Made by a program: the position numbers and the translations under genes
The notes under the pieces: generated by a model
What the model was told of the DNA's origin: nothing
Database searches by the model: none
What the model saw: only the letters and a program-made list of their open reading frames with translations
Part shown: positions 19,501 through 59,541 of the stretch, piece after piece
Numbering within the stretch: position 1 is the stretch's first letter
Layout: every line of letters starts with the position of its first letter
Origin: Bacillota bacterium
Lineage (GTDB): Bacteria; Bacillota; Clostridia; Christensenellales; UBA1242
Direction: 5' to 3'
NCBI GenBank assembly: GCA_009784185.1
Contig: WRCD01000001.1
Location: 55,255 to 119,254 of the forward strand
Length of the DNA stretch: 64,000 bases

Positions 19501-19522
19501 CATAAAGAAGGACAAAACAAAA

Positions 19523-43300: not shown

Positions 43301-44704
43301 GACATCCTTGACAGTTTTGAACCCGTAATTCAGGCAGAGCTTGAAAGAATTAAGTGGATTCAAATTACTAACCCTAAAAACGGAACGGCATTCGATTACA
43401 ACCAGGAAATTAAAGTGGTTGTTAAGCCGACAAATGATAACTACCTTCTAAATTCAATCTCAGGGCTGGACGGAGTTGCCGTTACATATTACAAAGACGA
43501 ACAGGGCAACGACATTGAAGGGATGTTTAAGTTTAATCTCACAGCCGACGTATCAATAACTGTTGCGTTTGATGCTATAATATTCAGCGTGACGAGAGTA
43601 TCGAGAGATGTTGACGGAAGCCCGCTTCCTAACGCCGAAAACAAAAGCTATCAGGACCTGGTAAAAGGCGAGCAGATTGAAGGCATTAACATTGGAACGG
43701 TTAACGAATACGAGTTTGTGGGCTGGTTTGTTGAGGTTGGCGTAGTTAAGTATTATGCCGACAGCACCGGAATTTACTTCTTTGACGGGTTGGGTGTTAA
43801 AAAATATGTTGACGGCATGGACGGAGTCTTTGCCCTTGACGTGGACACCGGCATAATTAACAGCCTTACGCTTACCGGCAACTTTGTTCAATTCTTTGCA
43901 AGCGGCGGCAACGTTATTACTTTAGTTGCAGAGTTTGGAAGAAAAACATCAATTGAAATTTCAATCATTGACGACTCGGTTGACCTCAACGGCTATGAAA
44001 TTTGGATTGGAGCAAGTAAGATTGGCGAGTCAACCGAAAAGAAACTGTTGTGGGACAGCCTTCCGTCAGGAACAGAAATAACCATCGTTCCGCAAAACAA
44101 CAAGTATTACACCTATGAAGGTTATGAGCTTGACGGCACACCGGGCACGGGCGCAATTGTTGTGCCTCTGCAGGGTCCGGCGTTCCTTAACATTAACTTT
44201 AAAAAGATTATGTACACAATGGACGTTAAGGTTACCGACTCAAATGCAAGAGGTCAGGTAATTTACGACGAAACAGTTGAGTTTGGAATCGGCAGTGTGC
44301 TTGTGTTCAAGTTTGAGCCGAGTGCCGGATATCAGTTAAGAAGCATGATTGTTAATACGAAGCAAGCAATGGAAATGACCGGAGACATGATGTTTATAGG
44401 CAACACGTTAACCATATTTGTAACGGAAGCATGGCTTGATTCGTGGGAGGAATGGATTAACGCAAACGACAAAGTAAGGTTTGAAATTACGGTTGAAACA
44501 ACCATGACAACAGCGTACTTTGTTTCAATGGGAGCTCTTGCTGCCGGTGTGCCGTTGATAACGCTTGGAATTGTTCTGGTATTGCTTTCAAACAGAAAGA
44601 AAAAAGCAGCATACGCACAGGCACTTGCAAAAAGTAAAAGTTCTAAAGCAGGGCTTGAGTCACAGCAATTTATTAAGGACCTGCAAAGCGGAAAATGGGA
44701 TTAA
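25358..44704 (+). CDS. Giant (6448 aa) surface protein: GLUG-type head, beta-rich modules, InlB-B-like and Listeria-Bacteroides repeats, C-terminal TM anchor
   Basis: An AGGAGG SD precedes an N-terminal signal/anchor. From about aa 60 to 400 there are repeated (N/D)xGG(L/I)(V/I)G motifs. These are followed by about 100-aa modules (..GW..NG.Y.F.V....YRG..) and by SAGxNGxISPxG...GY.V modules. Four super-repeats of about 450 aa carry ..F.GW...YYA(V/I)(W/Y/F) units. The C-terminus has a TM helix and an RKKK tail. Confidence 0.85.
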   Translation: MSTLAKKGNAWIKRFTVFGVAIALMCCGFAALGFNQQQYGKDGGVVYAASNQSGLDFENALEIGTAAPLLVGGAGRTMLATQNRYVRLTADINISGNAPWTPIPTLAAGTVFDGGIYEVDSQGDFVYDSTTNEPILLGKRKIVGLTNTSNTNNIGFVANLLGTFKNVDFENVNLAGTGTNRGVVAATVQNGNQAVNARIENVGVVNGAVGGTNAGGLVGSVGVSNSVAATTVLTIDQCYNMAAIAAVNDAGGLVGSSLRCTLTITKSFNSGSVVSASINNRPNVGGILGLGDATILKMENVYCTARVEWLSNGQGNVGGIIGNLQNAGATTLNNVAFAGTLGGGGSAMLGGITNNTSNGTGPFNITNCYYPQGQGTSNIGGSAAAQPSQMENVLDEIMAIIAGKLIFSVVTPTSLQQSQNGYTFTTSHRLSVLQNSVYTFTVSLLASHSQAAPAVSIKIGQGSTETWADLVDPVLGDPAFGSVSPNPLAHTSSTTSYTFTINDIYDNMEIFVGTSRNTYTVSAAPADAGAQGTFGFTSGYFGGTSGTPVVPSYPAGVTGASVNHGTTINFQITMATGYTQMAPFVRFGSTTISGTLVSAGVYNYSYVVNSSAAITITPVSNNYAVTRNPAGNYTGFTFSSISPETVGINGSYTFTLQVNEAYRNATSHARLSTIGGAGNINIARVGATGTLGTMLAISSNQVTGEYVYYIMNINSDTVINFPTLQISSYTIALPSGPEFTSVPMQFTNPPLNTIVRTSYNHGDMCQFSITVAPAYRGTAPIVMHGGTVLTPTSSNDISGVYGFNFPVTQQAAITVTTGSVNTFVVTRPNSGTGWNTSSSDPIHVEYDGEYNFIVNVDAGYRGVAGAWRAPSIMLTDGTGAQLIDSSGQPLNPGTNDVTLVLNTLHPSYSPANGVYTYRILDIQSNITIQVSASINTYAVNFPTSGTGFVSVVATTPVGFAGTVNHNGSFSFTVTSDLANGYGLFAPTVTVNGGGNITPVSGNTTTGVYTYTINNITAIQNISIAGNINTYAVNRDNSGDGWTASSGATGASWNGDYEFTVTVAPSHRGDSVNGWRAPTVTFTGTGSCDNGGTLGLLEFNPALSNQSTGVYVYKITGIKSAIDISISADINKYTVVFDEDPRDGEPGFEGSGWFTDDEDDLDFSHGGNYIFVINVDEGWYGDAGARRAPTVTFKGTANGVTNGSVSVFVSDPRHNPDGGVFVFRLASITTDIELSVTATINQYTVSRTADGTGFSSAPNAGSASPVDWNGSYEFTVNVGANYRGDIVNGWRAPSVTLASGTGSLVLDTGHLNYFPENGVYTYKLTGIKSNIQINISVQLNTYIVAFANGNALTGDGWAATPGTSPVSHGGNYTYTVTLDVSHRGDAINGWRAPTVSAGTLVPGSSDAAAGVYVYTITGVTTNVTIAISNVTRNQYTVAFANGNALTGDGWTATPGASPVAHGGNYTFTVTLDVSHRGDSVNGWRAPTVSAGTLVPGESDATIGVYVYTITGVTGNTTITVSNVTRNQYSVTLPSSRVGYSFAGITEPASVGHGQAFSFQILVSPSHHTPVVTIKGGSTVPGTFITDRFYFSVSNVQANFELEVLVTPYIYTVTLPSGQNAVGFTADKDTLASSVVLYHYQNSTTPDTKYYFAISLLASHSGISSVSVSAGTATLTPLGETSPGSGVFRYELSEFRGTVEGIVISATATIKTYNVSFNGGLSAAGWEVTSAVSPTTNSVDYGSEFRFFANVNTGYNTLVVEYTMAGGATQTASRVGSTNEYYISNITGNVVITISSTINSYNVSVAGGNLTPAGWTVSGGDIVSPTTNPVNYNLPFSFDAQLNTGYHTLSVTYTMGGVSMGALTAASGTDTFTIPHVTGNIVITVSSILHTYTITASAVGNGNISPSGTATINYGSNSSTYTFTPNTGYEVVGIIINKGLPSQVILDGTTNPTLAAAIASGYRFMGVTANFTIEVTFAIRTFTLTVTQTANGTIEFDSATAVTRSFDYGSTPKYDIVPATGYGIDKIIIGGTELSGIALTNAIAAGSYTFAAITAATSIEVTFKKIVFTIEASAGSNGSITPSGYVSVNHGENESFTFNPSTGYRVVGVEIDGTALTSTALEDVINANGYTFTNVTGDGHSIHVTFTIIQYTVTASAGGNGNISPSGAATINHGSNSAVYTFAPATGYYVESIVIDGTTIYTSADPEFAGFVASGYQFVGVTGQRTIHVTFAIYTYDITVTATGNGTVEPTAGTLSGGKLTVNYGATPTFTITPAANHHIVSITVGGAIVANANSYTFTAVTANTSIAVVFAIDAYTVSFVTTNAVHRPASSWVSYTIAPTTIDHGAVWTVPSLAGVRHVSTFANAIGFTVTSGPNTGATVYTPGQTITITGTTTITIVFDTGTSWSVTLDEGDSNIRTNFITGQLATDNLPDAPNYSKANHDFLGWSLTYISPSAAAALDATGLAALIAGGTSVNADNANGKTYYAVWRGTAQAVTFKDHDGTTLGTDSIYYNESIAALTPPAAGAWNWDDREYYYTFKGWSTSQQVYWTTGNVDNASWNEGVLSFPQTITGATNYYAVYTRAIKYYTVTWISDNNATTTQSTYRYDDVISIPGYTAPSNTATWTYTFVGWRITVQTDFDTDTGGTVALTGTKVTADATYYAIFSRAATLHTINWYNFDGTLIKSDSLANGLSLTLPTLGAGGFNAPSNTVALSYTFKGWSHTNTGHNGATIATPTVVEASLPGTGGQTINYYAIFNQFATPYVVTFVTTNAVELVSGNWEPYTVDTSNSATYSFYGGVWTVPDLTGIRHATTYADAIGFRITSGTGSGSTVYSFGDAINFAITIQSATTITIVFAAGTSWSITLDEGDSNIRTNFITGQLATGDLPAAPNYSKANHDFLGWSLTMYTPSQAAALSGQTLQDIEDTKTGSYSVTADSPTGLTYYAVWRGTAQTVTFNEWRGASATQITTQQIFYNESVSFGGTVPANWEDVEYKYTFIGWNTTQQVYWNAAVGGGRDNAAWNESVLAFPQTITAPRDYYAVYKREIKYYTLTWTNYDDAETVQSSYRHNATINIPSVSGPSNDATWTYTFAGWRTTGAQSDYSDQDNLISVSALTGTQVTADVTYYALFSRAATLHTINWYNFDGTLIKSDSLANGAGLTLPTLGAGGFNAPSNTVALSYSWKGWNTTNTNWGGATIANPTVVNVATPGTGSVTIDYYAIFNQFATPYTVTFDTTGAEKESVLGNGNWAPFTITQEIIGYGSTWTVIGLTGVRNEVGYANAIGFRVTSGPNTGATVYTPGQTITITGTTTITIAFASGTYFITLDEGDGNVRHNYITGQNAPGTLPSLPNYSKADHDFLGWSLTYISPSEAAKLDSSEEANLAATKGGAVTATGELVYRAVWRGTAQAVNFYDWRGVSVGSAIDTQAIFYNENILSFGGVAPSNWDDREYYYTFKGWSTSQQVYWTTGNVDNASWNEGVLSFPQTITGATNYYAVYTRTIKYYTITWKNYDDTTAATQTTYRYGDAITPPSAKAVPNDELFIYTFLGWRISTAQTDYDTDVSGFSTSLGTISGNATYYAGFSRVDTEHTVNWYNFDGTLIKSELLKIGAAITEPTAHGNYKVPSITVSSVYSLKGWNTSLTAHNGSVITLDANLTLTSNGAVVINYYAVFNETPRPYTVTFVTTNAVQYVTDAWVSYTITGETINFGSTWTVPSLAGIRHATTYANATGFRITSGTGSGATEYTPGQTITIQSATTITIVFAAGTSWSITLDEGDSNIVPDYITGQNATGSLPAAPTYDKTNYDFLGWSATYVSPSQAAAGLGTIIAGGTSVTADSASGKTYYAVWRGEEQEVNFYNWDGTSQTLVQTVKVYYGESAASIFTAGNPSITQTNFYTFAFEGWNTTKQVHGIRNGSWSEATVTPGTILAPTDYYAVYKRTMRTYSINWYDYDGTLVTAQNGLEYDAVISAPSPTKAPTSVSHNYAFAGWRVTSQSIGDDEYNFGDLAGVITNFAGINVTASNVYYALFSQSIKVYSITASAGSNGSIAPAGSVAVNHGASRTFTFSPAANHHVASITVDGTTYTSADGATFDGYVSGGYTFSNVTANGHTISVTFAIDQRTITVTTTGSGTVTTATGSTSGNVVTVNYGATPTFTITPAANHHIVSITVGGVALDGTTNPTLAAVILAGAYQFASVTANTSIAVVFAIDQRTITASAGANGNISPIGNVSVDYNGSQKFTFAADANYHIASLVVIINGVQVSGPSIAAAITAGEYTFTNVTTDCSISVTFAIDTYTISASAGSNGNISPAGSVSVDHGADQTFTFHPAANYHVASITVDGTTYTSGATFDGFVSGGYTFSNVTTTHTISVTFAINTNAITASTGSNGNISPSGIVNVNYGASSPAFTFTPNTGYEIDQVLVNGVNNAGAVSSGTYTFISVTSAQTISVTFKLKSYTITITTGSNGTTHLNDNASPVGGSVEADHFSTPKFTFVPATGYRVIAISVDTGSGSLTALTGTALTNAISGGYTFASITGSRAISVTFDKILYTITASTGSNGSISPAGSVSVRHGEDEAFTFTPNTGYEIDQVLVNGVNDAGAVPSGTYTFTNVTTTHTISVTFKLKTYTITASAGSNGSISPSGNVPVNHAASQAFMFVPDANYHVESITINGTTYTSADGAAFDGYVSLGYTFSNVTANGNSISVTFAIDAYTVSFRDGLSGTGWAVSGSGVGQSNSVDWDNDFYFFANVTTGYENLTVRYTINGAVTEYNAVPGLEPNEYYIPNVQGTIQIVVSSSIIKLNVEWKNGYSGAGWSTENVDEQVNYGGSYLISILLDGHYRQTTPKILINNVEVLSGISYNSTTGVATYTISNIILDREIEIVVVPNVYNVTLDSTPSTSPVNWVFDDTGYTKNITYSPTAEDDYEFTITVNNVAYDPETLIVRFNGVIAYSDTVLGGLIDGIDVGVAVSGTNNEIFTFTIPQMIKHLNITIELGLNVYTVTKSTEERVTINFENGDGITRAHGQPFTFTVTVDESATQNTPEFRINGTGSWIAMARVGATNTYTYTISSMTESIVISARAAVNTYNVTWNGNNYSGTGWSTANVNDTVTWNGEYTFTIDVDSSTHNSATLVVTVNHAEIFADQFGVYTISAIKGNQTIRVVSLDWNVYNVSVSGGSLSPAGWVVSDGDIVNAATNPIEHGSNFVFNAALKTGYNTLVVKYTMVGFDSGNPQTIAGVLGVYTIPNVIGDVVITVTSIINEYSVSFVGGVTEAAGWIVTDVLDTSPVKHGFGFAFEAETKEGYNTLVVTYTMAGTPGTHIVDAVGGVYTIENITGAVVIALSSSINTYTVTIPEGGAGQGFTAATADGDVDWGSSFTFTIALDSKHDLNIPTVTVTRTGQAADVLDEEINNAYYSLSVARNANGRITSITVVIKQVKEDADVDIQPIVNRYTISLTGNAYGSIAIHASDLDTDYEHGSDIRIIVTPNAGYNFLYLSSNPSGVYGVTYQVTVTVSGITNHMTIEAIFAENPVTTIYFDPNGGRITSGAGVIQQVSGNGGLTANVSGIEEPKRVGYVFQGWNENAAGTGAFVDTFVFSYNETTGVTYYAIWALREYEIIVDLAEMVDAGETPVQAGKDPGYFSLDTNYYIGFDDGLYMVEWLVWFDSGFTPLGSIMPYLNIKDIFANNDKGLELLARYEIPTGGYYQLRFQPRVELAPYSITATIINGAEATITVTTNKGTQALTNNMPVQVSGDDVTISIKVSKVYKVICGELAFDSTLLSGNGIMEYTFTFPAALVSNFVFTVEFEEIDYKLVLAAEVSPADAPPLVVLNHHWASSDELSMLLGADRTTIMQINAPQGHSFIRYSVIDKDGVYWTLSDKTVAQLVVGVTLVTNGFVTKTFWLEDFLRSIGSGEEGIVVVAHYVVRQTVKAELAAGSNSLWGSIEVFYLDPDFNAASEYNKLLQEMIEAHPLLDNDLLTRDGGLEPWEEDILDSFEPVIQAELERIKWIQITNPKNGTAFDYNQEIKVVVKPTNDNYLLNSISGLDGVAVTYYKDEQGNDIEGMFKFNLTADVSITVAFDAIIFSVTRVSRDVDGSPLPNAENKSYQDLVKGEQIEGINIGTVNEYEFVGWFVEVGVVKYYADSTGIYFFDGLGVKKYVDGMDGVFALDVDTGIINSLTLTGNFVQFFASGGNVITLVAEFGRKTSIEISIIDDSVDLNGYEIWIGASKIGESTEKKLLWDSLPSGTEITIVPQNNKYYTYEGYELDGTPGTGAIVVPLQGPAFLNINFKKIMYTMDVKVTDSNARGQVIYDETVEFGIGSVLVFKFEPSAGYQLRSMIVNTKQAMEMTGDMMFIGNTLTIFVTEAWLDSWEEWINANDKVRFEITVETTMTTAYFVSMGALAAGVPLITLGIVLVLLSNRKKKAAYAQALAKSKSSKAGLESQQFIKDLQSGKWD
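29375..29933 (+). repeat. Intragenic tandem duplication, 2 x 279 nt (93 codons)
   Basis: GCGTTTGCAAACGGCAACGCGCTTAC recurs at 29387 and 29666. The copies share long identical blocks. Confidence 0.85.
32300..37440 (+). repeat. Four intragenic super-repeats of about 1.35-1.40 kb each
   Basis: The units start near 32305, 33648, 35043 and 36389 (peptide ..(T/S)F(V/D)TT(N/G)A..). Blocks of about 50-106 identical nt are shared between non-adjacent units. Confidence 0.85.
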
Positions 44705-44719
44705 GGGGAGGGTTGAATT

Positions 44720-46921
44720 ATGAAGAAATTAAGAATGAATTTTAGTTTAATCAGTTTTGCCGCCCTGCTTGTTTCCGTCTTTGCCTGCTTGGGAATCTTT
44801 GGACTGGTCAACAGCGGAAGCCGGGCTGTCTTTGCCGACGAACCCGGCAATCCGTTAATCAGCGTGTTTCTGGCAGATAACGAAATTGAGGGCGGAGAGT
44901 TTAAGATTGGTATGCGTCCAATCACCTTGAACGGAACGGGCACATACACTTTCTCTTCGGCGGGCGAAACAATTAATCTTATTGTGACGGTCTGGCCGCA
45001 TTATGAATTTGTTGGCTACACGATATATTATTATGATGCTCTTACAGAAGGCTTTGTTCTGGACGAAAATGATACGGAAGAAAGAAAACAGACCACTTAT
45101 CCGCTGCTGCTGCAGGACGTTTCGGAGTATGAGATTTATGTGGAATTTAAAATCAAAGAATATGAATTGATTGTTCTTTCGCAATGGTTTGACAACAGGT
45201 CGCTGGACATTTCAAATGACATTTCCGGCGATTTAGGCAGCGGAGCGTTCAAAAGAATCAATTTCACTTCAAACCTTATTACCTTAGATGAAGAGGCTGA
45301 ATTTAAAAATGATATATGGAATGAGGACGGCCTAAGATTTTCGCATGTTGAAATCTTCTATTTCACCGGAAGGGGCAGCAATGACCTGGGAATACAGCCT
45401 CTTTATGAACTGACTTTTAATTCGGCAAATCTTGGTTTGTATGCAAATGAAGACGCGCAAATCTGGGTTATAGGGGTGTATGTTGAAACCTTTGACGTTA
45501 ACATCGGCATTCCTAATTTTCACTCGCTGTACAACGGAATTGAAATTTCAATCATAAGCCCTGTATTTAACAAGCCCGAAACTTTTGAAAGTCATGCCAG
45601 AAGCTTCCGGGGCTGGGTTGACAAAGGCTCATTGATTGTTATTAACGCACTGCATGACGATTACTACACATTTGCCGGATATACATTCCTGGATGGCGAA
45701 GCACCGGGCATCTTTGGCAACGGCGGGCTGCAGGCAATGTTTAAAGTGTTTGAAAACTATCGGATTTATGCAAACTTTGAGCCGGTGCTGCTAACTTTAA
45801 CGTTGCTTGCACGCGACTCTAACGGGAACCTCTTTGACCTTTCCGGCCATGCATATATTAAGATGACTCTCTTTAATACCGGCCTTGAGCCGGGAAAAGC
45901 CAACATCAACGATGTTATGGAAGAGGTTATCTTCCATACAGCCCTGCAGGGCTTTGGCGTTCTGGGCACATATTCCGTTAAAAGAGCAACGTCCGATGTG
46001 CTTGACCCGCTTGTGTTTTCAACCTCTACGTCCAGGCTTACTCCTGCATTTTTGCAGAAATATCTTTACAACGACGGAATAATTTTAGTTGTGCACGTAA
46101 TTAGACAATATGATGTTAATTTTATTGTTCCTCAGCTCTCGGCGGGGATGGGCACTTATGAAGTGTTTGTTAACGGCGGAAGCGTTGGGGTACAGGCAGC
46201 TTCAAAAATGTTTAGATTTAATATCGGTGACAACGTTGAAATTAAAGCAAGCGAAGGAACGTTCCGTAACTTTGGAGGATTTTCAGGCGTTGCAAACGAT
46301 GACATCTTTTACTCAAAAGCAGAAAAAAGACTTATTTTTGTTGCAGGCTATGACAGAACGGTAAATGTGAACTTTTCAGCCGTTATGTTCAGCGTTAAAG
46401 ACGGTGCGGCAAACTCAAATGTTTTCATGCTGCCAAAAACAGTGTCTGTGGGTGACGTTCTGACATTGTCACTGTCATATAACCTGGCGCCTAACCAGAC
46501 AATTAAAGACTGGAAAATATTCGGTGACAGTTATACAAAATGGAGCAGTATTGCCGAGCTTGAAGGAAGCACATTAAAAATTACCTTAAACGAAGCCTTT
46601 ATTATGGCGTATTCAAACTGGTCCGCGGGCGGAACCGACCTGGTAATCAGCAGTGAAGCTATTCCAGGTATGGAGACGGGCGTGCTTTTAATGATTCTGA
46701 TTCCGAGCATTGCTATTCCGGTTTTAGCCGCAGTGCTGCTGCTTTTATGGCTGCAGAACATGAAGCGTAAGAGAATTGTAAGAACAATGGTTACAGAGAA
46801 AATGCAAAGTGACATGACGCGAAACACGGCCGGTTTTATTTCGGACTTAAAGGCCGGAAACATTGCTTCAACAGATGCGCAGGTTAAAAAGGGAATGAAA
46901 GACAAAGACTGGCGTAAATGA
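44720..46921 (+). CDS. Surface-anchored protein (733 aa) with signal peptide, degenerate beta modules and a C-terminal TM plus conserved tail
   Basis: It starts 15 nt after the giant gene with a GGGGAGGG SD. It has a signal peptide (..SRAVFA|DE) and a C-terminal TM followed by KRKR...GFISDLKAG. Confidence 0.75.
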   Translation: MKKLRMNFSLISFAALLVSVFACLGIFGLVNSGSRAVFADEPGNPLISVFLADNEIEGGEFKIGMRPITLNGTGTYTFSSAGETINLIVTVWPHYEFVGYTIYYYDALTEGFVLDENDTEERKQTTYPLLLQDVSEYEIYVEFKIKEYELIVLSQWFDNRSLDISNDISGDLGSGAFKRINFTSNLITLDEEAEFKNDIWNEDGLRFSHVEIFYFTGRGSNDLGIQPLYELTFNSANLGLYANEDAQIWVIGVYVETFDVNIGIPNFHSLYNGIEISIISPVFNKPETFESHARSFRGWVDKGSLIVINALHDDYYTFAGYTFLDGEAPGIFGNGGLQAMFKVFENYRIYANFEPVLLTLTLLARDSNGNLFDLSGHAYIKMTLFNTGLEPGKANINDVMEEVIFHTALQGFGVLGTYSVKRATSDVLDPLVFSTSTSRLTPAFLQKYLYNDGIILVVHVIRQYDVNFIVPQLSAGMGTYEVFVNGGSVGVQAASKMFRFNIGDNVEIKASEGTFRNFGGFSGVANDDIFYSKAEKRLIFVAGYDRTVNVNFSAVMFSVKDGAANSNVFMLPKTVSVGDVLTLSLSYNLAPNQTIKDWKIFGDSYTKWSSIAELEGSTLKITLNEAFIMAYSNWSAGGTDLVISSEAIPGMETGVLLMILIPSIAIPVLAAVLLLLWLQNMKRKRIVRTMVTEKMQSDMTRNTAGFISDLKAGNIASTDAQVKKGMKDKDWRK

Positions 46922-46985
46922 TTAAAACAGTAATCCCTCAGTGTTGTGCTGAGGGTTATTGTTGAAGTACTAAAGGGGATAGGGT

Positions 46986-49900
46986 ATGAACAAAAGAGTT
47001 TTTATAAGTTCGTACAAAAGGTTGGGGCTGGTTGTTGCGCTGATAATGATTGCCGGCTCATTTATGTTTTTAATTAATGCGGGAAAAAGCATAGACCGTG
47101 CCAGCGCTTTTGACGGAACTCCCGTTGCTTTTGTTGACGGCACCGACGGCACTGGCGTGTTGGGTGACCCATACATAATAACTAAGGAAGGGCATTTAGT
47201 ATACCTGTCCGAAAACTATAACAGGCTGGGGGCAAAGCAGCACTATAGGCTGGGTGCTAATTTAGACTTGGACGGCTTTGTGTTTACCCCGATTGCAAAC
47301 GATAACGCAAATGCTTTTAAAGGAGAATTTGACGGCGCCGGTTTTGTAATTTCAAACTTTGTAATGAGCGGCAGCAGTAATGCGGGCGGCTTGTTCGGCT
47401 ATATTGACGGCGGAAAGGTTTTTGATGTTAACATAATAAACTTTAATGCCGAGCAGATTTATACGCCGGGCAGTTTGGCCGGCGGCATAGCGGGAGAGGC
47501 ATTAAACGCAGAAATAACAAACTGTACCGTTTCGTCCTCAAGGCTTACTGCATATAATTCGGCCGGCGGTATTGCCGGAAGTGCACACAGCACTGTTGTT
47601 GAAGACTGCAAAGTGTTTGCATCGTTTATCAGTGCGCAAAAAAGTGCGGGCGGCATTGTAGGTGAAATAACCGGCAGCGGAAGCGTTGTTAACAGCTGCC
47701 TGAGCCAGAACAACAACATATTGGCCGAGACATATATATTGCTGGCAGGTGTGGATTCTGCGGCGGGCGGCATTGCTGCAATAAGCAATGGCACGGCAAT
47801 AAGCGATTGCAGGAGCCGCGACAACAATATCTTTTCTCAGCGATATACCGCAGGGTTGGTTGCCGTTGCCCTGGGAACGACCATTACAAGCAGTTATAAT
47901 ACCAGCACGGTAAAGGGATATGACGGTGTAAGTTTTGCGGGTGTGTACTCGTTAAACGGCGCAAACGGGATTGACGGCATTGCTGCATTAAACGGCGCAG
48001 ACGGAAAGGCCGGGGCAGCGGGAGCAAACGGCACCCGCGGGGGAAGTGCGGGCGGAATTGTTTGTGTGATAGATTATGAAAGTGTCATAACGGACACCTT
48101 TAATGCGGGCATGATTATAGCGGGCAGCGGAGGCGGAGGCGGCAACGGCGGCAGCGGCGGCGGAGGCGGCAACAGCGGAAAAGACGGCTCTGATAATTAT
48201 CTGGCTAACGGAGGCAGCGGCGGCAGCGGAGGCGGAGGCGGCAACGGCGGCAACGGAGGCAGCGCGGGCGCAATATATGTTTTTTACTTAAACAACAGTT
48301 CTGTCCCGGTAAATATTGCCGGCATTATTACAAACACGTTTACCCGTGCGGGAATGGTTAATCTGGACCTGATAAACGGCAATGGCGGTTCTGCGGGCTT
48401 TGGTGGTTTTGCAGGGGGCTTTGGTTATGGTCTGGTTAATGGCAGCAGCGGGCAAAACGGGCTGAACGGCATTCCGGGTGACAGCGGGACAATTGAAAAA
48501 CTGACAGGTGAGGAGTTTCAGCCGCATCTGGTGTTTAATTATAATGGCGGTAATGTTGGTGTTGCAACAAAACCGGTTGATTACAACTCTGCGTTTGGCA
48601 CGTTGCCCGTGCCGGTTTATGATGGCTGGAAGTTTGTAGGCTGGCAAAACGAATATGGCAGTTTTGTAAACGGCAACACCTTATTCTTGGCGCTTGATAA
48701 AATTGAATTAACAGCTATATATGAAAAATTATACGTAATTAACGCGCATCTTAACAACGGCAGCGGAGTTTCAGGCACGGTGTTTGAAGCAAATGATTTT
48801 GTTGCCGAAGGGCTGCCTGTTCCTGTAAGAGCGGGCTGGGCGTTTGACGGCTGGTACCTTGATTCTGCTTTCGGCACTCCCTTATCCGCAACCGCTACCG
48901 CAATAAGCCTGGAAGCCAGTCCAACGGTATATGCCAAGTGGCTTCAGGAAATAAGAATAAACTTTAACATAACCGAGTTTGGCAGCATTATTAACAACGA
49001 GCCCGCAAGCGTGCTCAACAATTTTAACGCCGCTGCGCCCAATCAGTTGTATGTAATAAGAGTAAGCGGGCGGCCGCTTGGTGCATTGCCTGTAGCCAGG
49101 CCCAATATATTAAACAGCCAGTATTATTTCGGCGGCTGGTATGAGAATATATCAAATACTTCTACATTGGTTGCGGCAACCACGGTATACAACCATGCAA
49201 GCCTTACAAACGGGCAGATAACGCTTACCTCCAGATGGAACACTAACGCTTTCCTGGAGTATAACTTAATGGGCGCAGATGACATTGACGAGTGCAGTAC
49301 AGCATGGGACGGCGGCGATGAAATATATGCCGGCGGAACCGGAACCGAGCAAAACCCGTTTCAGATTGCTAACGCCAGACAGCTGAGGCAGCTGGCACTG
49401 CACGTAAACAACCGCACGGCAATCAGCCCGGGCAACTTTTATTTTGACAAACACTTTATTTTAACAAACAATATAGATTTGGGAACCGTTCATCTATGGG
49501 AGCCTATAGGTAACGGTTCGGTAGTCGGCGGACTGGTCAGGAGATTTGAAGGAAGCTTTCACGGAAATGGCTTTTATGTAAAAAATCTTAACATACAATA
49601 CAATAGCAGTACGGCAATAGCTGCCGGAAGCCGTATTTATCTGGGGCTGTTTGGCGCTGCACTTAATGCAAAAATTACCCAAGTTGGCATTGAAAGCGGA
49701 AGCATTACTTTTAACGCAACCGGAACGGGGAATATAGCTGAGCGCACACATATATATGTAGGCTCTGTTATCGGGCGTTGTGCCGGTGCTACATTGATAC
49801 AGGAATGCTACAGTAACGTTGATATCAACGTAAACGTTAACAGAACCGCTGCTACTCTGGGCGTTTCGGCTTTTGTGGGCGGAATGGTTGGCAGGCTTGA

Positions 49901-54389: not shown

Positions 54390-57300
54390 AAAAATTATTT
54401 GTTATCTTAGCCTGTTTTGTGTTTTCTGTGTCGGTGTTTGCTTTTGCGCTGTATCCCAACATGAAGTCGGAGCGCGTTACGGCCGGCAACTGGAACGACG
54501 GTATTGATATAAATACCTACGTCTTTACAGGCGGCGGCTCTGGTGATAGTGCGTTGGACCCGTATATAATAACCGATGCAAGTGACTTAGCTTACATGAG
54601 CAAACAGGCGGCCGAAAATGCGTCTATTTTAAACTATAAATTCTATGAGCTGGCAAATGATATACTTAACTTGGATGTTCATTATTTTACACCGATTGGT
54701 TCCGGCAACGAAAACAACAAAATTTATAATATAAGTTTTAACGGAAACGGTTATACGCTGGACGGACTAACTATAGACATCGGTTCGGATTATAACGGTC
54801 TGTTTGGGTTTTTGGCGGATTCGGACATCTACAATTTAAACCTGACAGGAGTCAGCATAGTTGATACTGCTTCCGGCGGAATGTATACCGGCGCAGTTGC
54901 CGGATATGCACAGGGAAGCACCTTTACCGACATAAATACAAGCGGAACAATAACCGTAACAAACAACTATGCCGGAGGCATGGTGGGAGCACTTGGCGGT
55001 GCTGAAAGCGGTTTTGTTGGGTGCATAAGCAACGTGAATGTTACGTCAACTACCGGAAGTTATACGGGAGGTATTTTTGGTGCTGCGTATTCGGGTACGG
55101 TAACGTTAAGCGGATGCAGAAACTATGGTAATATAAGCGGTAATGAATATGTAGCGGGCATTGGTTCGGGCTATAGCACAACCAGCGCAACGTTTATTCT
55201 TGATAGTTGCGTAAACACAGGAGTTGTTAAAAGCCTTACGTTTAACGAAAGCTATTTTGCCGGGCTGATTGCATACGCAAGCAGCAGCTTAAATAATGTA
55301 ATGAATTTTTGCTCTAACACCGGAAAAATTGATGCAACCAACTCCAACTATGTAGCGGGGCTGGTTGCGTTTGGAAAATTCAGTATTAAAGACTGCTTTA
55401 ACAATGCAGGCGTTGACGGCAGAAATTTTGTTGCGGGCATTGCGGCATACGGCACGTTTGATGTTGACGGCAGCTATAACGGTGTAAGCGGCAATATATC
55501 TGCAAGCGGTTCGTCGGCAGATACCGTGGCGGGCGGAATTGTTGGCCGAATGGCCGGCCCGGGCAGCATAAAGCTGAGTTACAACAAGGGGGCGGTCAGC
55601 GTTAGCGGAAACGGAACGCCGGCAGGGTTGCTGGGCAGTTTTGACGCGGCAGGTGCGCCTGCTAATATGTTTGTAATAGAAAACTGCTATAACTGGGGTG
55701 AGGCCGGTAATGCTTTTATCGGCGCTTCAAGCCAGTCTGTTACTGTTGTTAATTGCTATAATATGTCCGGCTCGTCGGTGGCGGCTGGTGCAAATATTAT
55801 AAACTCACTTATAGTCAACGGCGGCAGTGCAGGTTCAATTTTTAACAATTTGTCGGCTTACAGCCCGTCCGGCTGGGGGCTGGATACGCAGCAGAGTTTC
55901 TTTAACGGAACAACTTACGTAAATTACAACAACGGACTCCCATATATACGCTCCGGGCTGGTCAGCGCCTTATATATTGATTTACAGGGCGGAGAAGCAA
56001 CGGGAGCCTTTAAAGGATTTTACCTGCAGGATTACTTAGGGCAGACACAGGTGCTCTTTACTGATTTTAAGAAACTGGGTTACAGTTTTGTTGGATTTAA
56101 CGTGCCAATGCCGTTTGTGCACAAATTACAGGCAGAGGTTTTGTATTGTCAATATGCGTTAACCGATTATGCAATTGAAGTGGATGTAGACGCCGGCAGT
56201 GTAAGTGAAGGCACCGTTGGATTGTATAAGTGGGTTGGCGGTACGCTAACCTTAACCGCCGATCCGGAGGACTTTTATGCCAATCTGGAAACTAATATGG
56301 TTATAAAGGCAGAACAGATTTCGCAGTTAAGCAACAAATTTGCTTATTGGGCGGTTGAGTTTGATGCCGTGCTGTACCAGGTTTCCAACCAAGCCGAGCT
56401 TAATTTAGGCAGTATATTTAATATGAGCTTTTTAGCTGCTTTTGAGGAGCATCTGCTTGCCTTGCCGGCAGGCGCTGCCGACTTTAGATTTGTTGCGGTG
56501 TTTGAGGAATCCTGGGAGATAGAGGTAGATATTGCTACACAACACAAAAACTGGGGAGACCTGACTATAACCGTTGGCGGAAATACACACGGTTTCAATT
56601 TTGATAATACATTCAGGGTTCCGGTTACACATACGGCAATAAACCTTACACTTACACCAAAAGAATATTACAAAACATCGTCGTTTTCGATAGAAAAGGT
56701 AAATGATGCTTCGGGGCAGACCCTTATAGAACCATATACCTTAAACGAGTTTGAGCCCACCAGCATTAACATACAACTGAAAAGCGACCTTAAGCTTTCA
56801 ATCAGTTTTGCCGTAACAATTTATAATTTCAGCATTAGTTCGGTTTATGAGGATTTTACCGATACGCCGGACAACCTGATAGAGTTGTACGGGAACGTAT
56901 ATCCATTTTATATTGACCAATTTATTAATCCTGCCGTTCAGAGTGGGATTTCCGCTAAAGCGGGAGATATTGAAGCCTACAGGTTTTTAGGTTTTAAGTT
57001 TAAGTATGCCATTGGCGGCGGGTACAGCAATTATGTGGATTTGTACGCCCCGGGTGTGATGGGGGCAGTTGATGTAGATGCCGGATTTTTAAAAGACTAC
57101 TTTGTTAGCGGAGCCCAATATTACAACGGCGGAACAGTTTATATAGTTGCGGTATACAAACAGCAGTATCAGTTAAATGTGGAGTTTAACGACCACGAAT
57201 TAGGCAGTCTTGATGTGCGGATAAACACAAGCAGTATTTTAGACTACAACGGCAGATATTTTGACGAGGGCTCGGATATTAAAATATTTATTATAATTTA

Positions 57301-58555
57301 CGACAATTGCAGATTGGACAGTATTACTATAAACGCAGCTGCGGCCGCACAGGTAGACTTACCCTTAGAGACCGGCTTAAATATTTTAATCCGTCTTGCC
57401 AAGATACGGTATTATCTGGAGCTGTATACTATAGATTACGACAATATTAAAATCGATACCGAAGGCAATCTGGAGGCTATAGATTTTAAATCTGACCTGT
57501 TTGGTGAGTATCTGGAATATGATGACAATTTTGTTATATACAACTATCAATCTTTGGAAATGCGCAACAACATGATGTTTGTTGCGTGGTATTACAGGCT
57601 GGCGGGCGGTGCGCTTGTGCCGATTACGGCAGATGAGGATGACAACATAAACAGTATTATTACAAAAGGAATTATTAATCAGGTTAAGTGGACAGGTTCC
57701 GGCGGCCGGGAATACATAACCATTGTTGCAAAAATAGTTAACATTTTTGTGTTGGATGTGCACCTGTCTATAACTCAAAGCTTACGCGGGGACTATATTG
57801 TTGCAGTATATGATGAGGGACTGAATGATTTTGTAATTGTTGACAAGGATGACACAGAGTTTGCAATGGGCGCAACGGTGCGTATAACGGCCGTATCAAA
57901 CAACTATTTCAGTTTTGCTTATTTTGAAGACAGCCAGGGCAATAAGCTTGCTGCAGATAGTTCCAATCCGTTTGCACTCACATTTGTTTTGAGCGGAAAC
58001 CAATTTATTTCGGTCTATTTTGACCCGGACGATTTTTACTTTGCTTTAGGGCCGGGTGACATTTCTCCCAACGGAGAGGTGATGTATCTAATCAATTCCA
58101 AGGCAGCCGAGATAGGGCAAATGCAGACCGTAAAGATAGGCGATACAATTATTGTATCCTTTGAGCCGGGGGCAAATTATCAGGTTAGTGAATTTACAAT
58201 AAACGGAAAAACTTTAATTCAGCTGAGAGACGATTACGGTGCCCAAATAGCAGGAAATTCACTTATAATAAGAGTTAATGCGGATTTCCTGGACTGGATT
58301 TCGGGCAATCAGGGGCTGATTAGCGCCAACATATCAACAGCCATAAGCACATTGTATATAATACTGCTTGCCTCAATTGCCGTGCTGGTGCCGGGAATGG
58401 TGCTTGCCGCAACCATAATAATGGTATACAACCAGCGCAAGAAGGCTGCGGCGCTTGTGGTTAAAGCAAGGCAGGCAAAAACCAAGGGCGGACACGACTT
58501 TAGAGACATGATGGATAAGATAGGCGAAGAAAAGCGAAAGGAGATTAACAAATGA
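54386..58555 (+). CDS. Large (1389 aa) surface protein: GLUG-type head, degenerate beta modules, C-terminal TM plus conserved tail
   Basis: Its ATG overlaps the upstream stop (ATGA). It has a signal peptide and head motifs GLFGFL, YTGAVAGYA, YAGGMVGAL and YTGGIFGAA. The C-terminal module is ..VSFEPGANYQVSEFTINGK.. followed by a TM helix and NQRKKAA. Confidence 0.8.
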   Translation: MKKLFVILACFVFSVSVFAFALYPNMKSERVTAGNWNDGIDINTYVFTGGGSGDSALDPYIITDASDLAYMSKQAAENASILNYKFYELANDILNLDVHYFTPIGSGNENNKIYNISFNGNGYTLDGLTIDIGSDYNGLFGFLADSDIYNLNLTGVSIVDTASGGMYTGAVAGYAQGSTFTDINTSGTITVTNNYAGGMVGALGGAESGFVGCISNVNVTSTTGSYTGGIFGAAYSGTVTLSGCRNYGNISGNEYVAGIGSGYSTTSATFILDSCVNTGVVKSLTFNESYFAGLIAYASSSLNNVMNFCSNTGKIDATNSNYVAGLVAFGKFSIKDCFNNAGVDGRNFVAGIAAYGTFDVDGSYNGVSGNISASGSSADTVAGGIVGRMAGPGSIKLSYNKGAVSVSGNGTPAGLLGSFDAAGAPANMFVIENCYNWGEAGNAFIGASSQSVTVVNCYNMSGSSVAAGANIINSLIVNGGSAGSIFNNLSAYSPSGWGLDTQQSFFNGTTYVNYNNGLPYIRSGLVSALYIDLQGGEATGAFKGFYLQDYLGQTQVLFTDFKKLGYSFVGFNVPMPFVHKLQAEVLYCQYALTDYAIEVDVDAGSVSEGTVGLYKWVGGTLTLTADPEDFYANLETNMVIKAEQISQLSNKFAYWAVEFDAVLYQVSNQAELNLGSIFNMSFLAAFEEHLLALPAGAADFRFVAVFEESWEIEVDIATQHKNWGDLTITVGGNTHGFNFDNTFRVPVTHTAINLTLTPKEYYKTSSFSIEKVNDASGQTLIEPYTLNEFEPTSINIQLKSDLKLSISFAVTIYNFSISSVYEDFTDTPDNLIELYGNVYPFYIDQFINPAVQSGISAKAGDIEAYRFLGFKFKYAIGGGYSNYVDLYAPGVMGAVDVDAGFLKDYFVSGAQYYNGGTVYIVAVYKQQYQLNVEFNDHELGSLDVRINTSSILDYNGRYFDEGSDIKIFIIIYDNCRLDSITINAAAAAQVDLPLETGLNILIRLAKIRYYLELYTIDYDNIKIDTEGNLEAIDFKSDLFGEYLEYDDNFVIYNYQSLEMRNNMMFVAWYYRLAGGALVPITADEDDNINSIITKGIINQVKWTGSGGREYITIVAKIVNIFVLDVHLSITQSLRGDYIVAVYDEGLNDFVIVDKDDTEFAMGATVRITAVSNNYFSFAYFEDSQGNKLAADSSNPFALTFVLSGNQFISVYFDPDDFYFALGPGDISPNGEVMYLINSKAAEIGQMQTVKIGDTIIVSFEPGANYQVSEFTINGKTLIQLRDDYGAQIAGNSLIIRVNADFLDWISGNQGLISANISTAISTLYIILLASIAVLVPGMVLAATIIMVYNQRKKAAALVVKARQAKTKGGHDFRDMMDKIGEEKRKEINK

Positions 58556-59541
58556 GAGCTATAATTGTTTCCTGTCTTATGCTTGCTATGTGCCTGTGTG
58601 TTGCAATATGTTTTGGATACAGCGGCCACGGTGTTGTAAAAGTTTCGGCTGCTTATGAGCCGGAAAACAATGCAGTTCCGGCTGCTGCCGCGCCAAGAAG
58701 CGCAGGGTTTGGCGCATTTGGCGTATGCTCGGTTTATGTTACTATCCCGGGCGAATACAATGGCATGGGCAGTTTCGCGGTTTTTGCGGTTGATACCGAC
58801 CCTGATACAGAAGAGAAAATTTTAACCGGAATAACGCCGGAAGAGAGCAGCAGATATGAGTTCCCGGCCGGGACTTTAATTGAAATTCATGCACTGCCTA
58901 ATCCGTTTCATGAGTTTGTTGACTTTAAACAAAACTTTAAAAGCGAACGTGCGTCACATGAAATATTAAGTGTTGAAGTAAGGTCGGACAGAGAATTCTT
59001 TTTGCTGTTTAAAAAGAAAAACTATATCATTAACGAAGGAATTATCTCCAGCGGCGTGGTGCTTAGTACAAACCAGTTTAAATTGGGTGATGAAATTTAT
59101 GTGTCATTAACCCTGGACTCCATGTTTGAAGTAAAGGACTTTAAAATAAACGGAATTTCGGTTAATCATCCAAACTACACCGGAGAAATAAAGTTTGCAA
59201 ACAACATTGCAACCATTATTATTACCGAGGACTGGCTGGGCGGTTATCTGAGCAATTTGGATGTTGTTGTAACAACCAAACTAAACGATATGTTTTTGAT
59301 TGCCTTAATAACCGCGTCAACCTCAATTCCGCTTTTAATATTGCTTACTGTGTTTTTGCTGGCAATTGGTAAAAGGCAGCGCAAGGCAGCAAGGCACGCA
59401 TTGCAGGTTAAGCAGGTATACGCGTTCCAGACAGATACCGGCTCGTTTATTAAGGGGCTTAAAGACGGAAGTTTTACCGGACAGTTTACGGATAAAGACA
59501 TAAAAGCAGAGCTAAAGAGCCAGAGCAAAGACCCGATGTAA
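58552..59541 (+). CDS. Small (329 aa) member of the same anchored family: signal peptide, one or two beta modules, TM and conserved tail
   Basis: Its ATG overlaps the upstream stop (ATGA). It has a signal peptide and a C-terminal TM followed by KRQRKAA...GSFIKGLKDG. Confidence 0.75.
   Translation: MRAIIVSCLMLAMCLCVAICFGYSGHGVVKVSAAYEPENNAVPAAAAPRSAGFGAFGVCSVYVTIPGEYNGMGSFAVFAVDTDPDTEEKILTGITPEESSRYEFPAGTLIEIHALPNPFHEFVDFKQNFKSERASHEILSVEVRSDREFFLLFKKKNYIINEGIISSGVVLSTNQFKLGDEIYVSLTLDSMFEVKDFKINGISVNHPNYTGEIKFANNIATIIITEDWLGGYLSNLDVVVTTKLNDMFLIALITASTSIPLLILLTVFLLAIGKRQRKAARHALQVKQVYAFQTDTGSFIKGLKDGSFTGQFTDKDIKAELKSQSKDPM

What the first reader, a model, noticed from the sequence alone, without database searches (positions are those of the whole stretch)
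44498..59538. Shared membrane-proximal module, TM helix and conserved cytoplasmic tail motif in four of the five operon proteins: a candidate new anchoring/sorting signal
The C-termini of proteins 1, 2, 4 and 5 align over about 150 aa. The nt ranges are 44498-44701, 46667-46918, 58331-58552 and 59290-59538. The shared parts are:
- a beta module, for example ..VKIGDTIIVSFEPGANYQVSEFTINGK..GNSLIIRVNADFLDWI.. in protein 4. The counterparts are ..IGSVLVFKFEPSAGYQLRSMIVNTK..GNTLTIFVTEAWLDSW.. in protein 1 and ..LGDEIYVSL..FEVKDFKINGI..NNIATIIITEDWLGGY.. in protein 5
- a TM helix
- a juxtamembrane basic patch: N-RKKKAA, NQRKKAA, GKRQRKAA or NMKRKR
- a conserved motif 15-20 residues further on: QQFIKDLQSGKW, GSFIKGLKDGSF, AGFISDLKAGNI, or the weaker HDFRDMMDKIGE

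The tails extend 35-55 aa into the cytoplasm. This is much longer than LPXTG, PEP-CTERM or GlyGly-CTERM type sorting signals. Conservation of a cytoplasmic motif across otherwise divergent giant extracellular proteins implies a common cytoplasmic or membrane partner, for example for localisation, assembly, secretion coupling or signalling. I do not recognise this motif as a described system. Protein 3 has a TM anchor but a different, shorter tail.
Basis: partly seen in the sequence, partly recalled or inferred. Interest (0 to 1): 0.75.

Follow-up and report, generated by a model that had tools for sequence, protein, structure and literature searches.

The report
Conserved cytoplasmic tail on giant surface proteins
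Four of five giant surface proteins in one operon share a previously uncatalogued membrane anchor with a conserved tail inside the cell, and in related gut bacteria genes for such proteins sit beside a bacterial actin-like filament system, which hints that the tail links the cell surface to an internal skeleton.

Summary
P1, P2, P4 and P5 end in the same roughly 170-aa region: a beta module, a Pro-containing TM helix, an N-x-K-K-K patch and a helical tail. Similarity is significant after composition correction: blastp gives 4e-4 to 3e-18. A tail-only HMM built from 91 non-window relatives scores P1, P2 and P5 at 40-57 bits and P4 at 13 bits, and 0 of 3000 shuffles reach these scores.

An exhaustive search found 604 related cluster representatives, and about 95 of the top 150 carry the full anchor at the extreme C-terminus. 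No Pfam, NCBIfam or PDB family covers the TM helix plus tail. Sources call these proteins 'hypothetical' or 'GLUG motif-containing'. The motif starts exactly 26 residues after the conserved Asn in 65 of 95 members.

Genes usually come in tandem, most often short tail then long tail. In eight related loci they adjoin a conserved cluster built around a ParM/StbA-type actin-like protein. That protein very probably lies on the window's own 279-kb contig, but outside the window.

Best reading: an uncleaved type-I anchor whose tail docks a cytoplasmic partner, most plausibly this filament system. That link rests on synteny only. A cleaved sorting signal is not supported.

The parts
25358..44704 (+). 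P1, 6448-aa surface protein with a short-tail anchor
   Evidence: ORF. The module HMM hits the last 170 aa at 1.4e-46. It has an N-terminal signal-like segment and one C-terminal TM segment.
44210..44512 (+). P1 membrane-proximal beta module
   Evidence: Aligned with the family module. Coordinates.
44513..44590 (+). P1 TM helix with the conserved Pro
   Evidence: Kyte-Doolittle score 2.44. The Pro is conserved in 73 of 95 relatives.
44591..44701 (+). P1 cytoplasmic tail: NRKKK patch, 19-aa spacer, motif QQFIKDLQSGKWD (44663-44701)
   Evidence: Tail HMM 39.5 bits, 0 of 3000 shuffles reach it. Short-tail subtype.
44720..46921 (+). P2, 733-aa surface protein with a long-tail anchor
   Evidence: Module HMM 1.8e-47.
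46385..46678 (+). P2 beta module
46679..46756 (+). P2 TM helix
   Evidence: Kyte-Doolittle score 2.78.
46757..46918 (+). P2 cytoplasmic tail: NMKRKR, spacer, motif 1 AGFISDLKAGN (46829-46861), motif 2 STDAQVKKGMKDKDWRK (46868-46918)
   Evidence: Tail HMM 49.9 bits, 0 of 3000 shuffles reach it.
46986..54389 (+). P3, 2467-aa surface protein (six Flg_new repeats, MBG_2, GLUG) with a different anchor
   Evidence: Pfam. No similarity to the module.
54237..54386 (+). P3 TM helix and its own 23-aa tail CLRHKRLIARINLQNEYLGGARR
   Evidence: The tail is conserved in the P3-like gene of L019 (VRHKRMIKRLNIQNNYLTGVK).
54386..58555 (+). P4, 1389-aa surface protein with a divergent short-tail anchor
   Evidence: Module HMM 2.4e-40. 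Orthologue-like proteins P0031, P0057 and P0060 carry similar tails.
58079..58351 (+). P4 beta module
58352..58429 (+). P4 TM helix
   Evidence: Kyte-Doolittle score 2.54.
58430..58552 (+). P4 cytoplasmic tail: NQRKK, spacer, weak in-register motif DMMDKIGEE
   Evidence: Tail HMM 13.4 bits (0 of 3000 shuffles reach it). Without the basic patch it scores 6.3 bits (31 of 3000).
58552..59541 (+). P5, 329-aa surface protein with a long-tail anchor
   Evidence: Module HMM 1.2e-50. AlphaFold2 model with mean pLDDT 82.
59020..59289 (+). P5 beta module (second Ig-like domain, residues 169-244 of the model)
   Evidence: Weak fold matches to Gram-positive pilin and CnaB-type domains.
59290..59367 (+). 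P5 TM helix
   Evidence: Part of one continuous helix, residues 246-294, in the model.
59368..59538 (+). P5 cytoplasmic tail: GKRQRK, helical spacer, motif 1 GSFIKGLKDGS (59440-59472), motif 2 FTDKDIKAELKSQSKDPM (59485-59538)
   Evidence: Tail HMM 57.3 bits. The model has helices at 296-305 and 314-326, with tail pLDDT 82-92.

Best explanation
P1, P2, P4 and P5 are type-I surface proteins that stay in the membrane and are not cleaved. Each has a signal peptide and a giant ectodomain. An Ig-like or B-repeat-like beta module sits directly on the membrane. Then come a Pro-containing TM helix and an N-x-K-K-K stop-transfer patch.

Their common C-terminus is a member of a widespread family that no database has curated. 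The TM helix continues about 24 residues into the cytoplasm as a rigid spacer. This holds a short amphipathic helix ([FY]-I-x-D-L-[RK]-E-G) at a fixed distance from the membrane. Long-tail members add a loop and a second helix (V-T-D-E-D-V-K-x-x-M-K, then Lys-rich).

The genes are made as tandem, translationally coupled sets, usually a short-tail gene followed by a long-tail gene.

Inferred: the tail is a docking module for a cytoplasmic partner. The best candidate is the chromosomal ParM/StbA-family actin-like system, gene order N1 - N2 (a small TM protein) - N3 - ALP - N5. N5 is ParR-like and ends in a conserved GRDYLLxLL peptide. Such a system would place, cluster or mechanically couple the surface proteins.

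Shown: the family, its conservation, the topology signals and the synteny. Inferred: any physical tail-filament contact and its purpose.
For: Family:
- The exhaustive profile search found 604 proteins at E<=1e-3 and 221 at E<=1e-10. About 95 of the best 150 have one full-length match at the extreme C-terminus, with TM helix, basic patch and tail.

Constraint on the tail:
- Tail columns carry 2-3.3 bits, comparable with most well-conserved module columns (the strongest, W and F, reach 4.9 and 3.8 bits).
- The motif starts at tail position 27 in 65 of 95 members.
- Orthologue pairs keep the tail better than the module. P2-P0016 is 52% against 26% identical, and P1-P0051 is 51% against 27%.
- The window tails score 13-57 bits against an HMM built without them, and 0 of 3000 shuffles reach those scores.

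Structure:
- The AlphaFold2 model of P5 has a continuous helix at 246-294, then helices at 296-305 and 314-326. Tail pLDDT is 82-92.

Tandem genes:
- The order is short tail then long tail in 13 of 14 pairs tabulated, and again in L027. In L026 both genes of a pair have long tails.
- P3/P4 and P4/P5 overlap by 4 nt.

Partner candidate:
- The N1-N2-N3-ALP-N5 cluster lies directly beside module genes in L003, L004, L005, L006, L008, L013, L015 and L023. It occurs on either side of them, and the chromosomal surroundings differ between loci.
- The ALP matches Pfam ALP_N at 8e-17. Its model is ParM-like, with TM-scores of 0.68-0.77 to pSK41 ParM, pCBH ParM, CorM and Dh-cParM1.
- The ALP is 71-88% identical between MAGs whose adhesins are only 22-40% identical.
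- Ten of 13 module proteins on contigs of at least 20 kb share their contig length with an ALP-bearing contig. One of these is the window's own 279,297-bp contig, through ALP P0174.
- N2 proteins are the best non-family hits of the anchor HMM.
- The ALP's own helix SDYISDLQEEV is the best non-family hit of the motif HMM, at E 0.01-0.8.
- ParR and CorR bind their filaments through a C-terminal helix peptide (bioRxiv 10.1101/2025.06.27.661541; PDB 4a62 is listed).
Against: - In the window the operon is not next to the ALP cluster. Nothing related lies in the 25 kb upstream or the 4.4 kb downstream.
- Window-type operons L019, L020 and L021 show no ALP in their visible flanks.
- More distant ALPs, 59-64% identical, occur as N1-ALP-N5 with no module gene within 10 kb. 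The filament therefore has a role of its own.
- In the contig that carries the ALP identical to P0174, the next giant gene (2171 aa) has no anchor.
- Synteny is not contact, and no interaction was modelled or measured.
- P4's motif is weak.
- The motif-to-ALP and N2-to-anchor similarities are borderline and were noticed after the fact.
- A cell wall would hinder lateral movement of the anchored proteins.
Confidence: 0.45

Rival explanations
1. The region is a plain membrane anchor. The tail is a stop-transfer and retention element whose amphipathic helices lie on the inner leaflet, with Lys-rich ends binding anionic lipids. It is conserved for biogenesis and stability of very large exported proteins, and it has no dedicated protein partner.
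For: Positive-inside patch and Lys-rich ends. Motif 1 has a moderate hydrophobic moment of about 0.5. No partner gene is conserved next to window-type operons.
Against: Specific non-lipid-like residues (D, E, G, T, Q) are conserved, and the spacing is fixed at 26 residues in 65 of 95 members. These are hard to explain by lipid binding. So are the distinct short and long subtypes kept in pairs and the tight linkage to one gene cluster.
Confidence: 0.22
2. The tails, TM helices and membrane-proximal modules mainly make neighbouring gene products pair with each other (short tail with long tail). This would build a hetero-oligomeric surface fibre. The actin-like cluster would be only a co-inherited neighbour.
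For: Tandem, translationally coupled genes in a nearly constant short-then-long order. The juxtamembrane helix has conserved hydrophobic positions at i and i+4. The window holds two such pairs, P1-P2 and P4-P5.
Against: It does not explain why motif 1 is shared by both partners, or why the cluster stays adjacent through rearrangements. In L026 both partners have long tails. L023 has a single module gene. This reading is compatible with the main explanation rather than exclusive of it.
Confidence: 0.18
3. The region is a cleaved C-terminal sorting signal. A dedicated sortase-, exosortase- or rhombosortase-like enzyme would recognise it and remove the TM helix and tail after export.
For: It has the three-part look of such signals: conserved residues before the TM helix, the hydrophobic helix, then a basic cluster. 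Several surface proteins of one genome share it.
Against: No LPXTG, PEP or GlyGly type motif is present. The conserved V-x-T-x-M-N is the last beta strand of the module. The tail is 33-94 aa long and conserved right to its end. NCBIfam sorting-signal models give only single stray hits among 70 members. No processing enzyme appears among the annotated neighbours of the related loci.
Confidence: 0.03
4. The tail binds nucleic acid or acts as a signalling output. It could tether surface complexes to the nucleoid, or report ectodomain engagement to the cytoplasm.
For: Helix-loop-helix shape and poly-Lys ends. The neighbourhood of a ParM/ParR-like pair is classically a DNA-segregation module.
Against: No Pfam match to SAP, HeH, WH2 or any other domain, even at E<=10. 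No kinase, cyclase or regulator is conserved nearby. Short tails lack the Lys-rich end.
Confidence: 0.07

Closest known systems
C-terminal sorting signals of surface proteins (LPXTG/sortase, PEP-CTERM/exosortase, GlyGly-CTERM/rhombosortase)
   Same: A C-terminal hydrophobic helix followed by a basic cluster, shared by several large secreted proteins of one genome.
   Different: There is no exoplasmic recognition motif. A conserved cytoplasmic extension of 33-94 aa follows the basic patch. No processing enzyme is nearby. NCBIfam models do not match. The anchor is most likely retained, not cleaved.
ParMRC plasmid segregation and its chromosomal derivative CorMR of Anabaena (bioRxiv 10.1101/2025.06.27.661541; PDB 9rmi, 4a62)
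   Same: The linked cluster has a ParM-fold ATPase followed by a gene whose product ends in a conserved short helical peptide. ParR and CorR use such a peptide to bind the filament. CorMR shows that chromosomal ParMR pairs can be repurposed as a membrane-associated cytoskeleton.
   Different: Here the cluster adds N1, a single-pass TM protein (N2) and N3, and it is joined to giant surface-protein genes with conserved tails. No centromere or DNA role was examined. Sequence similarity to CorM and Alp12 is marginal (E about 1e-3).
Divergent InlB B-repeat (Pfam Flg_new_2, PF18998) and Ig-like stalk domains of Gram-positive pilins and adhesins
   Same: The membrane-proximal beta module resembles these domains. 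Seventeen of 70 family members give weak Flg_new_2 hits. The P5 model gives weak fold hits to BcpA, EbpB and CnaB domains. Many giant proteins carry the same module as tandem arrays.
   Different: The four window modules themselves are below Pfam thresholds. In this family the module is fused without a linker to a TM helix and tail.
Surface adhesins coupled to an internal cytoskeleton (integrin-talin-actin, apicomplexan TRAP/MIC2 tails, Myxococcus Agl-Glt with MreB, Mycoplasma mobile Gli349 legs). These examples are recalled from general knowledge.
   Same: The logic is the same: a large extracellular adhesin, a single TM pass, and a short conserved cytoplasmic element that engages a filament system.
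   Different: There is no homology to any of these. Contact with the filament is unproven here. The organisms are walled Clostridia with no known motility of this type.

Membership tests
LPXTG-type sortase signal | LPXTG-like pentapeptide just outside the TM helix | tested here: not met
   The conserved pre-TM columns read [VI]-x-T-x-[MLI]-[NS]. They form the last beta strand of the module in the model.
LPXTG-type sortase signal | Protein ends a few residues after the basic cluster | tested here: not met
   Tails are 37-57 aa in the window and 33-94 aa in the family.
LPXTG-type sortase signal | Sortase encoded in the genome or nearby | not tested
   Only selected neighbours were scanned, and none was a sortase. 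The rest of the genome was not available.
PEP-CTERM, GlyGly-CTERM and other NCBIfam C-terminal sorting domains | Match to the curated HMM | tested here: not met
   Seventy family C-termini were scanned against NCBIfam. The only result was single stray hits, for example GG_III-CTERM in 1 of 70 at E 0.006.
Pfam Flg_new_2 (divergent InlB B-repeat), for the beta module only | Match above the gathering score | tested here: inconclusive
   There are 17 of 70 members with E<=0.01. P2, P4, P5 and the last 299 aa of P1 give no hit. A different, internal repeat of P1 does reach 25.9 bits against a cutoff of 23.6.
ParM/StbA actin-like proteins (the linked gene, not in the window) | Actin-fold ATPase of ParM type | tested here: met
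   Pfam ALP_N at 8e-17. AlphaFold2 pLDDT 86 and pTM 0.83. Foldseek E 1e-15 to 1e-19 to ParM, Alp12, Alp7A, CorM and Ta0583. NCBI names it ParM/StbA family.
ParMRC-type system (the linked cluster) | Adaptor that binds the filament through a C-terminal helix, plus a centromere | not testable with these tools
   N5 follows the ALP gene and ends in a conserved GRDY[LF][LM]x[LI]L peptide. Binding and a parC-like site were not examined.
WH2, SAP or HeH short helical motifs (for the tail) | Match to the Pfam profile | tested here: not met
   Ten tails were scanned at E<=10 and none of these families was hit. The resemblance of the pattern to WH2 is from memory only.

The most novel reading that the evidence does not exclude
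The conserved tails are the membrane end of a new bacterial surface-to-cytoskeleton coupling system. Pairs of giant TM-anchored adhesins would dock onto a chromosomal ParM-derived actin-like filament, either directly through the [FY]-I-x-D-L helix or through the small TM protein N2 and the adaptors N1, N3 and N5. The filament would then position, pattern or pull on the surface fibres. This would be a prokaryotic counterpart of adhesion receptors linked to actin.
Probability: 0.3. Interest if true: 0.9.

Novelty: new variant of a known kind. Interest (0 to 1): 0.72.

Why it matters
Gram-positive surface proteins are normally thought of as wall-linked or simply membrane-anchored, and their short cytoplasmic ends are ignored. 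This family has hundreds of giant proteins from uncultured gut and termite-gut Clostridia (Christensenellales-like). It keeps a structured cytoplasmic tail at a fixed distance from the membrane, and it travels in genomes with a highly conserved actin-like filament gene.

If the two interact, that would be a new use of ParM-type filaments, after plasmid segregation and the CorMR cell-shape system. It would also be a new way for bacteria to organise their surface.

Even without that link, the region deserves a curated domain model. These proteins are at present annotated only as 'hypothetical' or 'GLUG motif-containing'.

Tried and rejected
- Word-indexed homologue searches with the 4-sequence and 70-sequence alignments returned only P5 or nothing. 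The candidate lists were probably swamped by Lys-rich words. The exhaustive search was used instead.
- The metagenome scan with P5-like sequences confirmed no hit.
- Exact look-ups of window proteins were not on record.
- The ALP cluster was sought inside the window by tblastn at E<=5 and by HMMs at E<=1. Nothing was found.
- The tails were tested as a known short motif (WH2, SAP, HeH) by Pfam at E<=10, with no hit.
- The PDB profile search gave only TM-driven noise.
- Four literature searches for an actin-like protein together with surface proteins in Christensenellaceae or Clostridia found nothing relevant.
- A mobile-element origin for the linked cluster was considered and rejected. Its flanks are chromosomal and differ between loci: priA/fmt, gyrB/gyrA, pyruvate formate-lyase and cas9.
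- A fused ALP-plus-tail chain for AlphaFold was considered but not submitted.

Full report
**What is in the window.** Five co-directional ORFs lie at 25358-59541: P1 (6448 aa), P2 (733), P3 (2467), P4 (1389) and P5 (329). P3/P4 and P4/P5 overlap by 4 nt, and P1/P2 are 15 nt apart. Each protein has an N-terminal signal-like hydrophobic segment and a single strong C-terminal TM segment. Upstream are origin-region housekeeping genes: mnmG, parA, parB/noc, dnaB, helD, cysS, alaS and tyrS. Downstream are a small lipoprotein-like gene, a 218-aa gene and yfhO. The locus is therefore chromosomal.

**Checking the observation.** The last 200 aa of P1, P2, P4 and P5 match each other by blastp with composition-based statistics, at E-values from 4e-4 to 3e-18. 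P3 matches none of them. For the tails alone, comparisons within the window are significant for P2-P5 (p=0.002) and weaker for the other pairs.

The decisive test uses relatives. A tail-only HMM built from 91 non-window family members scores P1 at 39.5 bits, P2 at 49.9, P5 at 57.3 and P4 at 13.4. None of 3000 composition-preserving shuffles reaches these values. Without the basic patch, P4 drops to 6.3 bits (31 of 3000 shuffles reach it), while the others stay at 26-50 bits. Lys/Ala-rich composition therefore does not explain the similarity.

P4 is a divergent subtype.

**The family.** An exhaustive profile search of 1.84 billion cluster representatives found 604 proteins at E<=1e-3 and 221 at E<=1e-10. 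About 95 of the best 150 have one full-length match at their extreme C-terminus, with a TM helix, an N-x-K-K-K patch and a conserved tail. The rest match only the beta module, many times over, so the module is also a tandem-repeat domain.

- Tails fall into short forms (33-51 aa, ending soon after [FL]-[IL]-K-x-L-R-x-G) and long forms (52 aa or more, continuing G-K-x-V-G-Q-V-T-D-E-D-V-K-x-x-M-K and then Lys-rich). P1 and P4 are short. P2 and P5 are long.
- Tail columns carry 2-3.3 bits, comparable with most well-conserved module columns, though the strongest two (W 4.9, F 3.8 bits) are higher. The TM helix has a Pro in 73 of 95 members.
- Motif 1 begins exactly at tail position 27 in 65 of 95 members.
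- In orthologue-like pairs the tail is often better kept than the module: 52% against 26% identity for P2-P0016, and 51% against 27% for P1-P0051.

**Is it a known family?** Pfam and NCBIfam scans of the window proteins, of 70 family C-termini and of isolated tails found no model for the TM helix plus tail. The only consistent result was weak Flg_new_2 hits to the beta module in 17 of 70 members. A PDB profile search gave only TM noise. Source databases call these proteins 'hypothetical' or 'GLUG motif-containing'. Literature searches found nothing relevant.

**Structure.** AlphaFold2 on P5, with a 30-sequence alignment, gave a mean pLDDT of 82.
- There are two beta domains, at residues 58-155 and 169-244.
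- The last strand runs straight into one continuous helix, 246-294. This comprises the TM segment plus about 24 cytoplasmic residues.
- Next come a helix at 296-305 (TGSFIKGLKD), a loop, and a helix at 314-326 (DKDIKAELKSQSK).
- Tail pLDDT is 82-92.
- The ectodomain gives only weak Ig-like, pilin and CnaB matches.

The conserved residues just outside the membrane are thus a structural strand, not a cleavage motif.

**Genomic context.** Loci with relatives come from uncultured Clostridia: Christensenella-like MAGs and termite-gut 'Bacillota' MAGs. Anchor-family genes are almost always in tandem. The order is short tail then long tail in 13 of 14 pairs, including P1-P2 and P4-P5. L027 follows the same order, whereas in L026 both genes of a pair have long tails.

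In L003, L004, L005, L006, L008, L013, L015 and L023 the genes directly adjoin a conserved cluster:
- N1, about 210 aa.
- N2, a single-pass TM protein with a Lys/Glu-rich cytoplasmic part.
- N3, about 160 aa.
- A 345-365-aa actin-like protein (ALP).
- N5, with a helical N-terminal domain, a Pro/Gln-rich linker and a conserved C-terminal GRDY[LF][LM]x[LI]L peptide.

The cluster lies upstream of the module genes in some loci and downstream in others, and the surrounding chromosomal genes differ.

The ALP matches Pfam ALP_N and is named ParM/StbA family by NCBI. Its model (pLDDT 86, pTM 0.83) matches ParM, Alp12, Alp7A, CorM and Ta0583. It is 71-88% identical between MAGs whose adhesins share only 22-40% identity.

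**Link to the window's genome.** ALP P0174 is 75% identical to the query ALP, and its only recorded contig is 279,297 bp long. That is exactly the contig length recorded for the window's P5. The ALP cluster is therefore very probably on the same contig, but it is not inside the window.

A second assembly (L022) carries the identical ALP. It shows N1-N2-N3-ALP-N5 followed by a 2171-aa protein without the anchor and a 4202-aa protein that runs off the contig.

The same contig-length matching was applied more widely. Ten of 13 module proteins on contigs of at least 20 kb share a contig length with an ALP-bearing contig.

**Limits of the link.**
- Window-type operons (L019, L020, L021; P3-like, P4-like and P5-like genes) show no ALP in their visible flanks, and their downstream genes differ.
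- ALPs at 59-64% identity occur as N1-ALP-N5 with no module gene within 10 kb. N1-ALP-N5 is therefore a core system with a role of its own. N2, N3 and the anchored proteins look like an addition in one lineage.

**Two weak leads.**
- The anchor HMM (juxtamembrane region, TM helix and tail) finds N2 proteins as its best non-family hits among 1609 ORFs, at E 4e-4 to 2e-3. N2 may be a 'headless' anchor.
- A motif-1-only HMM finds the ALP's own conserved helix G-[VT]-S-D-Y-I-S-D-L-Q-E-[ED]-V (helix 224-238 of the model) as its best non-family hit in 246,000 aa of neighbourhood sequence, at E 0.011-0.8. This counts as one independent event.

N5's C-terminal peptide has a similar G-x-D-aromatic-aliphatic-x-x-L pattern. 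ParR and CorR bind their filaments through just such a C-terminal helix (bioRxiv 10.1101/2025.06.27.661541; PDB 4a62 listed). These points suggest a docking mode but prove nothing.

**Interpretation.**
- Shown: a new, widespread C-terminal anchor family with a constrained, structured cytoplasmic tail; tandem gene organisation; and strong genomic linkage to a ParM-type cluster in relatives, probably also in this genome.
- Inferred: the proteins stay membrane-anchored, and the tail docks a cytoplasmic partner.
- Most speculative: that partner is the actin-like system, which would place or couple the surface proteins.
- A cleaved sorting signal is unlikely.
- A plain lipid-binding anchor and pure pairing between neighbouring gene products remain live alternatives. 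The pairing idea is compatible with the main explanation.

**Verdict.** The label 'sorting signal' is not supported. What is demonstrated amounts to a new variant of a known kind, namely TM-anchored surface proteins. If the cytoskeletal coupling is real, it would be a categorically new system.

Noticed in passing
window 54321-54386; L019 2-1561: P3's different, shorter tail (CLRHKRLIARINLQNEYLGGARR) is itself conserved in the P3-like gene of a related operon (VRHKRMIKRLNIQNNYLTGVK). This may be a second tail type with its own constraint.
   Followed up: partly
window 59545-59573: A perfect sigma-70-type promoter match (TTGACA, 17 nt, TATAAT; 12 of 12) lies just after the P5 stop and before the lipoprotein-like gene at 59600-60145. 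The five-gene operon therefore probably ends at P5.
   Followed up: no
window 54386-54389 and 58552-58555: The P3/P4 and P4/P5 reading frames overlap by 4 nt, which suggests translational coupling. A gene caller started P5 nine codons later, giving the 320-aa P0001.
   Followed up: no
window 25358-44704 (P1 residues about 1890-2310 and 4035-4700): Weak internal copies of the membrane-proximal beta module occur as tandem arrays inside P1. In other giant proteins the same module is repeated up to about 30 times.
   Followed up: partly
L003-L008, L013, L015, L022, L023 (for example L005 11296-11829): N2 is a small single-pass TM protein of the actin-like cluster. Its 'LLNNPVLF' juxtamembrane sequence and TM helix weakly resemble the adhesin anchors, at E 4e-4 to 2e-3 among 1609 ORFs. 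It may be a headless anchor paralogue.
   Followed up: partly
ALP residues about 224-238 (P0174; for example L005 12320-13381): The tail motif's best match outside the family is the ALP's own conserved helix SDYISDLQE[ED]V, at E 0.011-0.8. The C-terminal peptide of N5 (GRDYLLxLL) has a similar pattern. This could be mimicry or chance.
   Followed up: partly
L022 4515-13041: On the contig carrying the ALP identical to the one assigned to the window's genome, the cluster is followed by a 2171-aa secreted protein without the anchor (Big_2, GLUG) and a 4202-aa protein whose end is not visible.
   Followed up: no
window 19403-21364: The alanine-tRNA ligase is the short form. It is 653 aa with a GTG start, and its best NCBIfam match is NF002436, a model of about 595 positions.
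   Followed up: no
window 61131-63710: A YfhO-family membrane protein (Pfam 4e-68) lies 1.6 kb downstream of the operon. It is not conserved next to related operons.
   Followed up: partly
L024 and L025, about 9200-11900: More distant homologues of the actin-like protein occur as a three-gene core, N1-ALP-N5, in apparent spore-formers, with GerA-type germination genes nearby in L024. There are no giant surface-protein genes within 10 kb.
   Followed up: partly
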